Assembly (NCBI GenBank): GCA_048937405.1
Contig: JBHLNF010000002.1
Coordinates: 160,001 to 224,000, forward strand
Reading direction: 5' to 3'
Origin: Promethearchaeota archaeon
Lineage (GTDB): Archaea; Asgardarchaeota; Lokiarchaeia; Sigyniarchaeales; SOKP01
Length of the DNA: 64,000 nt
Below are positions 34,021 to 34,446 of the stretch, one piece after another; the first letter of the stretch is position 1, and every line of letters begins with the position of its first letter. The position numbers were made by a program, and so were the translations under genes. The notes under the pieces are model-generated. The model searched no databases, had not been told where the DNA came from, and saw only the letters and a program-made list of their open reading frames with translations.

Positions 34021-34113
34021 GGTTTCACTGAAAGAACAATTTAGTATTAATTAAGGTTAGAATTTATAATATAAAAACTTAATTTAAGAAGAGATAAAAA
34101 AATATTATTGAAG

Positions 34114-34296
34114 TTTAACCACATTTACTCACGTGACCGGGTATTTTCCTTGTAGGCCATGACCGTAAGCTAACTTACAGTTTGTAGTTTCCCATAGATC
34201 GCAACTACAGTACTATCTACAACGCATACGAGTTTAACTTCCGGGTTCGGATGGTTCCAGCGCAGTAGCGAATTGCTACAAAGTAATGTGGTTAAA
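34114..34296 (-). other. Processing stem with a bulge-helix-bulge flanking the permuted 5S rRNA
   Basis: Terminal inverted repeat UUUAACCACAUU (34296-34285) / AAUGUGGUUAAA (34125-34114). GCG pairs with CGU; central 4-bp helix CUGG (34260-34257)/CCGG (34140-34137); 3-nt bulges AAC and UCA, each 3' of the helix. Confidence 0.8.
34135..34254 (-). rRNA. rrf: 5S rRNA gene, circularly permuted (3' part 34254-34174 precedes 5' part 34169-34135)
   Basis: Minus strand: CCAUCCGAACCCGGAAGUUAAACUCGUAUGCGUUGUAGAUAGUACUGUAGUUGCGAUCUAUGGGAAACUACAAACUGUAAG-UUAG-CUUACGGUCAUGGCCUACAAGGAAAAUACCCGGUC. It contains the 5S hallmarks CCGAAC.CGGAAGUUAA, loop E AGUA/GAA, GG.CAU and ACCCGG; helix I is CUUACGG/CUGUAAG. 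Length 120 nt. Confidence 0.88.
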
Positions 34297-34301
34297 AAAG
34301 C

Positions 34302-34339
34302 TATTTATAACCAATATATAAGGTCGGTTATTTTATAAG
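34302..34339 (-). promoter_or_regulatory. Candidate TATA boxes for the 5S precursor
   Basis: Minus strand CTTATAAAAT, CTTATATATT and GTTATAAATA. The middle one (34322-34313) lies ~25 nt upstream of the start of the terminal stem. Confidence 0.45.
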
Positions 34340-34446
34340 AAAATACCTACTTATATGGTTACAAGTAAATAGGAATAATAAACGCTAATAATTAAAATTT
34401 TTGCTTTTAAACGTTAACTTTAAAAGGAATAAACATAGGAGTTTAA

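What the first reader, a model, noticed from the sequence alone, without database searches (positions are those of the whole stretch)
34114..34296. Circularly permuted 5S rRNA gene apparently restored by BHB splicing into a circular RNA
Seen in sequence (minus strand): the 5S 3' portion (CCAUCCGAACCCGGAAGUUAA...AGUA...GGGAAAC...CUGUAAG, 34254-34174) comes before the 5' portion (CUUACGGUCAUGGC...UACCCGGUC, 34169-34135). The two strands of helix I are linked by a UUAG tetraloop. The flanks pair (UUUAACCACAUU/AAUGUGGUUAAA) and form GCG/CGU, then a 4-bp helix CUGG/CCGG with 3-nt bulges AAC and UCA on opposite strands, each 3' of the helix; the inner side is relaxed. Established: the archaeal splicing endonuclease EndA cuts after the second nt of each bulge and RtcB ligates, as for permuted tRNAs and the permuted SRP RNA of Thermoproteus. 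Applying that rule gives cuts at 34255/34254 and 34135/34134, a 120-nt product, and the junction ACCCGGUC^CCAUCCGAACCCGG, which rebuilds the conserved helix III/loop C. Inference: this organism makes its 5S rRNA from a permuted gene through a covalently closed circle, which is either the mature form or reopened at UUAG. I know of no described permuted 5S rRNA gene, and standard rRNA finders would miss or truncate it.
Basis: partly seen in the sequence, partly recalled or inferred. Interest (0 to 1): 0.97.

Follow-up and report, generated by a model that had tools for sequence, protein, structure and literature searches.

The report
Permuted, splice-restored 5S rRNA gene
This Lokiarchaeial (Asgard) genome encodes its only 5S ribosomal RNA back part first, between tRNA-intron-type cut signals, so a normal 5S can arise only by cutting and re-joining the transcript, most likely into a 120-nt ring; more than a hundred related genomes share the layout, which hides the gene from standard annotation.

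Summary
Observation confirmed and interpretation supported, but no RNA-level evidence could be obtained.

On the minus strand, 34296-34114 holds a 12-bp leader/trailer stem and a leader hairpin. Inside these lies a bulge-helix-bulge (BHB) motif: GCG-CUGG-AA|C paired with CCGG-UC|A-CGU. It encloses 5S positions ~36-120, a UUAG cap, then positions 1-35.

- **Only 5S-like locus.** Rfam scores the genomic order below threshold (32.2 vs 38 bits), and it is the genome's only hit.
- **Re-ordered product fits 5S.** The re-ordered 116-120 nt matches a canonical-5S HMM end to end (56.8 bits) and fits all five 5S helices.
- **Widespread.** A covariance model of the permuted core hits 117/130 genomes of the same family, two sister families and Odin-like genomes. 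The sister family that probably holds the cultured Lokiarchaeia has ordinary 5S genes.
- **Several layouts, one product.** Relatives use three different breakpoints and two loop-C BHB introns. The same cut rule restores the same 5S sequence in each. BHB helices covary (C-G to U-A, G-C to A-U).
- **Enzymes present.** The genome has RtcB and two EndA paralogues, apparently a heteromeric type.
- **Open point.** Whether the ring is the mature form is unproven (my odds ~0.6).

This scan had already noted the same phenomenon in other Asgard genomes. I found no paper describing it.

The parts
34314..34321 (-). A/T-rich TATA-like box about 20 nt upstream of the processing stem; candidate promoter
   Evidence: Sequence only. 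A similar TATAA(A/T)-GGT element sits at the same distance in congeners. Inferred, not tested.
34285..34296 (-). 5' arm of the 12-bp leader/trailer processing stem (UUUAACCACAUU)
   Evidence: Pairs with 34125-34114. In 15 congeners the stem is 97% paired, with two pairs changed on both sides.
34265..34279 (-). Leader hairpin GUAGC-AAUUC-GCUAC
   Evidence: 100% paired in 15 congeners, with a G-C to A-U double change. This is the stretch that Infernal mis-reads as a 5S 5' half.
34261..34263 (-). BHB outer helix h, 5' strand (GCG)
   Evidence: Pairs with CGU 34133-34131. It is GCG/CGC in most relatives and ACG/CGU or CGC/GCG in others.
34257..34260 (-). BHB central 4-bp helix, leader strand (CUGG)
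   Evidence: Pairs with CCGG 34140-34137. The helix covaries across the family: CCGG/CCGG, CUGG/CCAG, CUGG/UCAG, CCGA/UCGG.
34254..34256 (-). BHB bulge 1 (AAC); predicted EndA cut between 34255 and 34254
   Evidence: 3-nt bulge 3' of the central helix. Applying the cut-after-second-nucleotide rule restores canonical 5S in all five layouts seen.
34135..34254 (-). Predicted excised and joined unit: the 120-nt 5S rRNA in permuted order
   Evidence: Re-ordered, it gives one end-to-end hit of 56.8 bits to a canonical-5S HMM, against 38.5 + 0 bits in two pieces in genomic order. It fits the 5S fold at -23.4 kcal/mol, against an MFE of -25.4.
34174..34254 (-). 5S 3' part: loop C 3' side, 3' strands of helices III and II, helices V/IV with loop E, 3' strand of helix I
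   Evidence: Rfam RF00001 alignment; HMM columns 35-114; covariation in alignment A2.
34170..34173 (-). UUAG tetraloop capping helix I, where the normal 5S ends would be
   Evidence: Among 82 relatives the cap is UUCG in 41, UUAG in 18 and UUUG in 12. In one further locus the cap is replaced by a 31-nt extension.
34135..34169 (-). 5S 5' part: 5' strand of helix I, loop A, 5' strand of helix II, loop B, 5' strand of helix III
   Evidence: HMM columns 2-34. Helix II pairs with the upstream 3' part, with double changes in 6 of 9 pairs.
34137..34140 (-). BHB central helix, trailer strand (CCGG); also the 5' strand of mature helix III
34134..34136 (-). BHB bulge 2 (UCA); predicted cut between 34135 and 34134
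   Evidence: the same bulge occurs in 24 of 30 type A loci.
34131..34133 (-). BHB outer helix h, 3' strand (CGU)
34114..34125 (-). 3' arm of the processing stem (AAUGUGGUUAAA)
34096..34102 (-). Run of seven T about 12 nt after the stem; candidate archaeal terminator
   Evidence: Sequence only. T-runs follow the stem in congeners. Inferred.

Best explanation
This is the organism's 5S rRNA gene in circularly permuted order.

1. A stand-alone transcript of about 200 nt is made from the minus strand.
2. Its leader and trailer pair into a 12-bp stem. A 3-bp helix and a bulge-helix-bulge motif follow, with CUGG/CCGG flanked by the bulges AAC and UCA.
3. The archaeal splicing endonuclease cuts after the second nucleotide of each bulge, at 34255|34254 and 34135|34134. 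Here it is apparently a heteromeric, relaxed-specificity type made of two EndA paralogues.
4. RtcB joins the 2',3'-cyclic phosphate and 5'-OH ends of the excised 120-nt piece.
5. The join recreates ACCCGGUC-CCAUCC and so completes helix III and loop C. The CCGG that paired with the leader now pairs with the downstream CCGG of helix III.

The product is a covalently closed 5S whose natural ends are replaced by a tetraloop cap on helix I. I think this ring is what enters the ribosome.

Shown here: the permuted order, the conserved and covarying fold and BHB, the absence of any other 5S gene, and the presence of the enzymes. Inferred: cleavage, ligation, and the ring as the mature form.

The confidence of 0.6 is for the whole chain, including the ring as the mature form. 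For the cut-and-join step alone my odds are about 0.9.
For: 1. **Permuted order and 5S identity.** Rfam aligns only the 3' two-thirds convincingly. A canonical-5S HMM hits columns 35-114 and then columns 2-34 in genomic order, and gives a single 56.8-bit hit after re-ordering. All five helices are 86-100% paired in re-ordered type A products. The core fold has 17 of 28 pairs changed on both sides, 0/500 shuffles reaching that.
2. **Only 5S in the genome.** The genome is 100% complete by marker genes. None of 24 congeners searched reaches the Rfam cut-off, while the sister family scores 53-68 bits.
3. **Family-wide.** The covariance model R1 hits 117/130 genomes in 13 genera, plus families f3 and f4 and Odin-like genomes.
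4. **Five independent layouts give the same 5S under one cut rule.** These are breakpoints A (GGUC^CCAU), B (CCGGAA^GUUAA) and C (GGAA^ACACC), and loop-C introns at GAA^CCC and CAU^CCG. Types A and B occur within one genus, and each encodes the other's predicted junction contiguously.
5. **A structure-only BHB finder recovers the right site.** Its top hit is the 5S-restoring site in 82 of 97 distinct loci.
6. **The BHB covaries at positions defined by homology alone.** Type B loci are 98% paired against 85.9 +/- 1.2% with shuffled partners (0/1000). Double changes seen are C-G (27 loci) to U-A (15), and G-C (25) to A-U (14).
7. **Enzymes.** RtcB is present. Two EndA paralogues are 30% identical: one aligns to the C-terminal half of fused EndA and keeps Y/H/K-like residues; the other aligns to the N-terminal half. 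Heteromeric EndA has the most relaxed BHB recognition (PMC4731332).
8. **Ring as final form.** The cap is mostly a UUCG-type tetraloop, varies freely and tolerates a 31-nt extension, and shows no second processing motif. The circular SRP RNA of Thermoproteus stays circular and functional (PMC4731332). Circular 23S rRNA is reported within archaeal ribosomes (PMC12918454). E. coli tolerates circularly permuted 5S whose native ends are not free (PMC7283268).
Against: - No RNA data.
- In type A genes the BHB itself is almost invariant, so its covariation comes from type B relatives.
- The inner side of the BHB is unpaired in this window (a relaxed motif), and the outer helix is only 3 bp with one G-U.
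- The minimum-free-energy fold of the precursor does not draw the two bulges exactly.
- Rfam's covariance model could not be run on the re-ordered sequence.
- Nothing excludes a later nick in the cap.
Confidence: 0.6

Rival explanations
1. The same cut-and-join happens, but the ring is only an intermediate. A second nuclease opens it in or near the helix I cap, giving an ordinary linear 5S. This is how circular pre-16S/23S rRNAs are thought to be reopened in many archaea.
For: Circular pre-rRNAs are classically described as intermediates that are opened later (PMC8339473). The cap sits exactly where normal 5S ends lie. An earlier check in this scan priced 'the closed ring is the ribosome's 5S' at only 35/100 on other DNA.
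Against: No conserved sequence or second BHB lies at the cap. The loop is a variable, mostly UUCG-type tetraloop and accepts a 31-nt extension. Circular SRP RNA and circular 23S show that rings can be end products (PMC4731332, PMC12918454).
Confidence: 0.3
2. The transcript is trimmed but never ligated. The ribosome would use a linear permuted 5S with a capped helix I and free ends in helix III/loop C, comparable to the rearranged mitochondrial 5S of brown algae.
For: Helices I, II, IV and V form without any joining. Permuted end products exist for brown-algal mitochondrial 5S (PMC4267664).
Against: The break would lie in the most conserved part of 5S. The breakpoint also sits at three different places in close relatives, two of them within one genus, which is hard to tolerate unless the break is erased. 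A precise BHB is conserved and covaries at every breakpoint. EndA products are the natural substrates of RtcB, which is present.
Confidence: 0.06
3. A collinear but degenerate 5S gene at 34283-34172, as Infernal aligns it, with the downstream 'CUUACGG...' stretch unrelated.
For: Full-length RF00001 alignment at 32.2 bits, E = 9e-5. This fold is 88.5% paired in 15 congeners.
Against: - The score is below Rfam's cut-off of 38 bits.
- There are no double changes, and the fold is no better than shuffles (500/500).
- The supposed 5' half forms its own covarying hairpin and lacks loop A.
- Type B relatives have the same leader but no room for this fold.
- The downstream stretch covaries with the upstream one in helices I and II.
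Confidence: 0.02
4. Assembly artefact or decaying pseudogene, with the real 5S missing from the assembly.
For: The genome is a 29-contig assembly, and rRNA genes are often left unassembled.
Against: The same single-copy layout is found in more than 140 independent assemblies. Two of these are record-titled chromosomes, CP070831 (3.34 Mb) and CP070805 (2.27 Mb). Purifying selection is visible as compensatory changes. There is no other 5S hit at E <= 10 in a genome rated 100% complete.
Confidence: 0.01

Closest known systems
Permuted, circular SRP RNA of Thermoproteus tenax / T. uzoniensis (Plagens et al. 2015, PMC4731332)
   Same: A universal structured RNA is encoded in permuted order. Leader and trailer form a BHB that is cut by a heteromeric, relaxed-specificity splicing endonuclease. 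Ligation restores a conserved functional loop, and the circle is the functional end product.
   Different: The RNA here is 5S rRNA, a ribosome component. The clade is far larger: a whole Lokiarchaeial family plus other Asgard lineages, rather than two species. The breakpoint moves between close relatives and co-occurs with BHB introns. Cleavage and circularity are shown for the SRP RNA and only inferred here.
Circularly permuted tRNA genes (Cyanidioschyzon merolae, Soma et al. 2007; Thermofilum pendens; cited from PMC4267664 and my own knowledge)
   Same: The 3' half lies upstream of the 5' half, a BHB forms at the termini, and a circular RNA arises by the tRNA splicing machinery.
   Different: In tRNAs the circle is an intermediate that RNase P and tRNase Z reopen at the linked acceptor ends. 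No comparable reopening signal is seen at the 5S cap.
BHB-dependent circular pre-16S/23S rRNA, circular or permuted mature 23S (PMC8339473, PMC7758197, PMC12918454)
   Same: A processing stem carries a BHB, EndA and RtcB make a circular rRNA, and in some archaea the circle (or a re-cut permuted form) is what sits in the ribosome.
   Different: Those genes are collinear, so circularisation joins the natural ends. Here the gene is permuted and the join lies inside the conserved core. PMC12918454 states that 5S rRNAs are not processed this way.
'Permuted' mitochondrial 5S rRNA of brown algae (Valach et al. 2014, PMC4267664; Rfam mtPerm-5S)
   Same: A 5S with unconventional connectivity around helix I that standard models miss.
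   Different: There helix I is replaced by a terminal hairpin, and the RNA stays permuted with an open three-way junction. There is no re-ordering of the conserved halves, no BHB and no ligation.
Engineered circularly permuted 5S fused into 23S rRNA in E. coli (Huang et al. 2020, PMC7283268)
   Same: It shows that a 5S whose native ends are not free can still support ribosome function.
   Different: It is artificial, bacterial, linked to 23S and not a free ring.

Membership tests
5S rRNA (Rfam RF00001) | Score at or above the Rfam gathering threshold (38 bits) | tested here: not met
   The genomic order scores 32.2 bits. The re-ordered sequence could not be given to Infernal. As a substitute, nhmmer with an HMM built from 13 canonical 5S genes gives 56.8 bits end to end.
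5S rRNA (Rfam RF00001) | Three-way junction with helices I-V, supported by covariation | tested here: met
   After re-ordering, helices I/II/III/V/IV are 100/86/99/100/94% paired in 24 type A products. The core has 17 of 28 pairs changed on both sides, 0/500 shuffles.
5S rRNA (Rfam RF00001) | Conserved loop C/helix III and loop E sequence motifs | tested here: met
   CCCAUCCGAACCCGGAAGUUAA is formed across the junction, and AGUA/GGGAA flank helix IV.
5S rRNA (Rfam RF00001) | It is the 5S of the organism, with no better candidate elsewhere | tested here: met
   It is the single hit at E <= 10 in the whole 4.47-Mb genome, which is 100% complete by markers.
BHB-processed permuted RNA genes (permuted tRNA / SRP RNA type) | 3' part encoded upstream of the 5' part, with the native ends linked | tested here: met
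   HMM columns 35-114 come first and columns 2-34 follow; a UUAG cap links them.
BHB-processed permuted RNA genes (permuted tRNA / SRP RNA type) | Leader and trailer form a 4-bp helix flanked by two 3-nt bulges on opposite strands, plus flanking helices | tested here: met
   The motif is GCG-CUGG-AAC / CCGG-UCA-CGU. The outer helix is present and the inner helix is absent, so the motif is relaxed. It is conserved in 30 type A loci and covaries in 43 type B loci.
BHB-processed permuted RNA genes (permuted tRNA / SRP RNA type) | Cutting at the bulges and joining restores the canonical RNA | tested here: met
   In silico, five different layouts all restore the same 5S.
BHB-processed permuted RNA genes (permuted tRNA / SRP RNA type) | Splicing endonuclease and RtcB ligase encoded | tested here: met
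   Two EndA paralogues and RtcB at 564 bits.
BHB-processed permuted RNA genes (permuted tRNA / SRP RNA type) | Junction-spanning or circular RNA observed | not testable with these tools
The metagenome scan for the junction gave only canonical genes of other archaea.
Brown-algal mtPerm-5S type | Helix I replaced by a terminal hairpin, open three-way junction, halves not re-ordered | tested here: not met
   Here helix I is kept (8 bp, covarying) and capped, and the conserved halves are swapped. The definition comes from PMC4267664.

The most novel reading that the evidence does not exclude
In a whole family of Lokiarchaeia, and apparently in other Asgard lineages, the ribosome carries a covalently closed circular 5S rRNA. 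Because the ring erases the gene's start point, the breakpoint can drift neutrally. That would explain three breakpoints, two of them within one genus, and the BHB introns in the same 16-nt region, seeded by the self-complementary CCGG of helix III. The cultured Lokiarchaeia would then be the exceptions with ordinary genes.
Probability: 0.5. Interest if true: 0.92.

Novelty: new variant of a known kind. Interest (0 to 1): 0.86.

Why it matters
5S rRNA is universal, and archaeal 5S is thought not to be matured through circularisation (stated in PMC12918454). A permuted gene that needs the tRNA-splicing machinery would have four consequences:

1. It would make 5S the third class of permuted RNA gene after tRNA and SRP RNA, and the first ribosomal one encoded that way.
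2. It would imply a circular 5S in ribosomes of the closest prokaryotic relatives of eukaryotes.
3. It explains why 5S genes look missing or sub-threshold in more than a hundred Asgard MAGs, and it gives annotators a model to find them.
4. It gives a natural series (three breakpoints and two intron sites in one hairpin) for studying how BHB elements arise and move.

It is directly testable with RNA from sediment metatranscriptomes or enrichment cultures.

Tried and rejected
- **Junction scan.** The one metagenome-contig scan, for the spliced junction (31-mer), found seven contigs. All were ordinary collinear 5S genes of other, GC-richer archaea, with no capped helix I. This says nothing either way.
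- **Rfam gathering scan of the window.** No hit. ARAGORN found no tRNA.
- **Collinear 5S reading from Infernal.** Tested on the alignment and rejected: no compensatory change, and no better than shuffles.
- **Infernal on the re-ordered sequence.** Not possible, because the tools take only stored sources. An HMM and my own pair counts in Python served as substitutes.
- **Crude BHB scorer.** For the window itself it ranked a chance site one point above the real one, because of the G-U in the outer helix (L001). For 82 of 97 loci the real site ranked first.
- **Flanking ORFs.** Neither has a Pfam match. The next ORF on one side is a C25 peptidase, so context adds nothing.
- **Literature.** Searches for 'permuted 5S', 'circular 5S rRNA', and Asgard/Lokiarchaeota with 5S and BHB found no description of this.

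Full report
**What is in the sequence.** Read on the minus strand, 34296-34114 contains the following, in order:
- a 12-nt stem arm (34296-34285);
- a short spacer and a 5-bp hairpin GUAGC-AAUUC-GCUAC (34279-34265);
- GCG (34263-61), CUGG (34260-57), AAC (34256-54);
- a stretch that Rfam recognises as the 3' two-thirds of 5S rRNA (to 34174);
- a UUAG loop (34173-70);
- CUUACGGUCAUGG...ACCCGG (34169-34137), which looks like the first 35 nt of a 5S;
- UC, then A (to 34134), CGU (34133-31), GAGUA, and the complementary stem arm (34125-34114).

A TATA-like box lies about 20 nt upstream, and a run of seven T lies 12 nt downstream. The flanking ORFs have no Pfam family, so the unit stands alone.

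**Is it 5S, and is it permuted?** Rfam's gathering-threshold scan finds nothing in the window. At a relaxed threshold RF00001 gives 32.2 bits (cut-off 38) for 34283-34172. It forces the leader hairpin to play the 5' half. This is the only RF00001 hit at E <= 10 in the whole 4.47-Mb genome, which is 100% complete by markers.

I built an HMM from 13 ordinary 5S genes: nine from the sister family and four from unrelated archaeal contigs. In genomic order it matches columns 35-114 to the first 79 nt of the unit and, separately, columns 2-34 to the last 35 nt. After opening at the cap and joining at the predicted junction, it gives one end-to-end hit of 56.8 bits. Over 83 related loci the median rises from 21.9 to 45.7 bits.

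The re-ordered 116-mer can adopt the standard 5S fold with 34 standard pairs at -23.4 kcal/mol, close to its MFE of -25.4. Helices I, II, III, V and IV are 100, 86, 99, 100 and 94% paired across 24 type A products. The same alignment columns pair in bona fide 5S genes.

**Comparative evidence.**
- None of 24 congeneric genomes searched reaches the Rfam cut-off. The sister family f2 has ordinary 5S genes at 53-68 bits, often in tandem.
- Fifteen congeners share the window's layout base for base. The full precursor structure is 96.4% paired, with 8 pairs changed on both sides, 0/500 shuffles.
- A 94-position covariance model of the part common to all variants was built. That part is 5S positions ~52-120, the cap, then positions 1-24, in that genomic order. 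It has 17 of 28 pairs with double changes, 0/500 shuffles.
- This model hits 117 of 130 genomes of family f1 in 13 genera, usually once per genome, at 76-111 bits. It also hits f3 (1/1) and f4 (1/4). Family f2 gives only weak matches.
- In a phylum-wide sample it also hits all four genomes of a family with small 1.3-1.4 Mb genomes. I read these as Odin-like from their size; their names are not given.
- Record titles of 80 listed loci, from 91 stretches matching a layout-specific pattern, are almost all 'Promethearchaeota/Promethearchaeia archaeon' MAGs (Loki_b31/b32, ABR01-11, CP070831, CP070805 and others).

**The splice motif.** The decisive observation is that relatives carry the break at different places, each time inside a BHB that restores the same RNA under one rule: cut after the second nucleotide of each 3-nt bulge.
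- **Type A** (this window; also found in genera g14, g17, g18): GCG-CUGG-AA|C ... CCGG-UC|A-CGC. Junction GGUC^CCAU.
- **Type B** (most genera, and several species of the window's own genus): GCG-CCGG-AA|G UUAAAC ... GAAC-CCGG-AA|N-CGC. Junction CCGGAA^GUUAA.
- **Type C** (family f3): CGC-CCGA-AA|A ... UCGG-AA|A-GCG. Junction GGAA^ACACC, in loop B.

Type B genes encode the window's predicted junction contiguously, and the window encodes theirs.

In addition, 22 type B genes carry a 30-nt insertion in loop C that is itself a textbook BHB intron (UCCG-AA|N, a 5-9 bp inner stem, CGGG-AA|C). One congener has a second intron site (UCCC-AU|U ... GGGA-AA|C). Both restore CCCAUCCGAACCCGG exactly.

A finder that knows only the BHB geometry ranks the 5S-restoring site first in 82 of 97 distinct loci. 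With positions fixed by 5S homology alone, type B motifs are 98% paired, against 85.9 +/- 1.2% when partners are shuffled among loci (0/1000). They show double changes C-G (27 loci) to U-A (15) in the central helix and G-C (25) to A-U (14) in the outer helix. Type A motifs are 100% paired but nearly invariant. Related genomes are not independent, so these numbers overstate significance. The multiplicity of layouts does not depend on that.

The Odin-like genomes have a type B motif with a perfect 10-bp outer helix and CGUG/CACG as the central helix.

**Mechanism.**
- The genome encodes RtcB and two 197/200-aa EndA paralogues that are 30% identical.
- One paralogue aligns to the C-terminal (catalytic) half of fused EndA and keeps a Y...H...K pattern. 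The other aligns to the N-terminal half and lacks the His.
- This suggests a heteromeric enzyme, the class with the most relaxed BHB recognition (PMC4731332). That fits the missing inner helix of the window's motif.
- I infer transcription, BHB formation, two cuts and RtcB ligation of the 120-nt piece.
- The trailer CCGG switches partner, from the leader's CUGG to the CCGG of helix III. This self-complementary CCGG occurs on both strands of helix III. It probably explains why BHBs keep arising in this 16-nt region.

**Ring or reopened?** The cap is a 4-nt loop in 82 of 83 loci: UUCG 41, UUAG 18, UUUG 12. It covaries as a closed hairpin, carries no conserved motif, and in two members of one genus is replaced by a branched ~30-nt extension (one of them is the 83rd locus). 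That favours a permanent cap.

Circular SRP RNA (PMC4731332) and circular 23S in ribosomes (PMC12918454) are precedents. E. coli tolerates circularly permuted 5S whose native ends are not free (PMC7283268). Nothing here excludes a later nick. I put the ring as the mature form at about 0.6 and a reopened linear 5S at about 0.3.

**Rivals rejected.**
- The collinear reading from Infernal is 88.5% paired in congeners but has no compensatory change and equals every shuffle. Its '5' half' is a covarying hairpin, and type B genes have no room for it.
- A never-ligated permuted 5S is hard to reconcile with breakpoints that move within a genus.
- Artefact or pseudogene is excluded by more than 140 independent assemblies, including two record-titled chromosomes, and by selection on pairing.

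**Known or new?** The searchable literature holds no permuted or circular archaeal 5S. PMC12918454 states that 5S rRNAs, unlike 16S/23S, are not processed via circularisation. The brown-algal 'permuted' mitochondrial 5S (PMC4267664) is a different rearrangement.

The closest precedent is the permuted circular SRP RNA of Thermoproteus. This scan has already flagged the same phenomenon in other Asgard genomes (Heimdall, Odin, Hel, Njord groups), and one note reports junction reads in environmental RNA for Heimdall relatives. I re-tested only the Odin case.

New here:
- the family-wide extent in Lokiarchaeia;
- three breakpoints, two of them coexisting within one genus, together with two BHB intron sites;
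That would explain why the phenomenon escaped notice.

**Limits.** No RNA data could be obtained. The junction scan of metagenome contigs returned only ordinary 5S genes of other archaea. Cleavage, ligation and circularity are inferences.

Noticed in passing
L058, L061, L062, L072, L079, L081, L086, L114 and others (22 loci; the part just downstream of the R1 core): A 30-nt BHB intron sits in loop C of type B permuted 5S genes: UCCG-AA|N, an inner stem of 5-9 bp, then CGGG-AA|C. Removing it restores CCGAA^CCCGG. These genes are both permuted and intron-bearing.
   Followed up: partly
L055:1595-1660 (G129, same genus as the window): A second loop-C intron site: UCCC-AU|U, an 8/9-bp inner stem, then GGGA-AA|C. 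It restores CCCAU^CCGAAC. The intron contains a copy of GGAUAAUACCCGGUCCC, so it looks like a local duplication.
   Followed up: partly
L011:1351-1690 (G026, family f3): A permuted 5S with the break in loop B (CGC-CCGA-AA|A / UCGG-AA|A-GCG) and the same leader architecture: a long stem plus a 5-bp hairpin.
   Followed up: partly
L012, L014, L017, L025, L027, L029, L066, L067, L080 (helix IV / loop D of the 5S core): A roughly 30-nt hairpin expansion lies in the helix IV loop of some species, with different sequences in different lineages. It is absent from the window.
   Followed up: no
L070 and L072 (genus g16), helix I cap: The tetraloop cap is replaced by a roughly 30-nt branched extension with a GC-rich hairpin.
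   Followed up: no
window 34344-34402, minus strand: A conserved upstream block is shared with congeners. It has an A/T-rich AAAGTTTAATTATTAGC-like element, then an imperfect inverted repeat CCTATTTACTT...AAGTAGG (34373-34347). It could be a second promoter with a leader hairpin, or a separate small RNA. Rfam has no match.
   Followed up: no
L079:981-1121 (G115): A second, weak (35.7 bits) copy of the permuted core lies about 700 nt downstream of the good copy, with a long insertion in the helix IV region. Possibly a decaying duplicate.
   Followed up: no
L004 (G032), L005 (G039); G055: Sister family f2 has collinear 5S genes in tandem arrays of two or three copies about 370 nt apart, each with its own TATA-like box. 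Tandem duplication is one route by which a permuted gene could revert to normal order, or the reverse.
   Followed up: no
L021:1351-1771 (G031, family f4): A divergent 5S-like hit (28.6 bits) is flanked by a direct repeat (UUGUCGA) instead of a helix I. Its layout was not resolved.
   Followed up: no
G000 C27:74041-74634 (-) and C8:4871-5473 (+): Two unlinked EndA paralogues of 197 and 200 aa, 30% identical. Only the first keeps a His at the catalytic position. This suggests a heteromeric splicing endonuclease in this Lokiarchaeon.
   Followed up: partly
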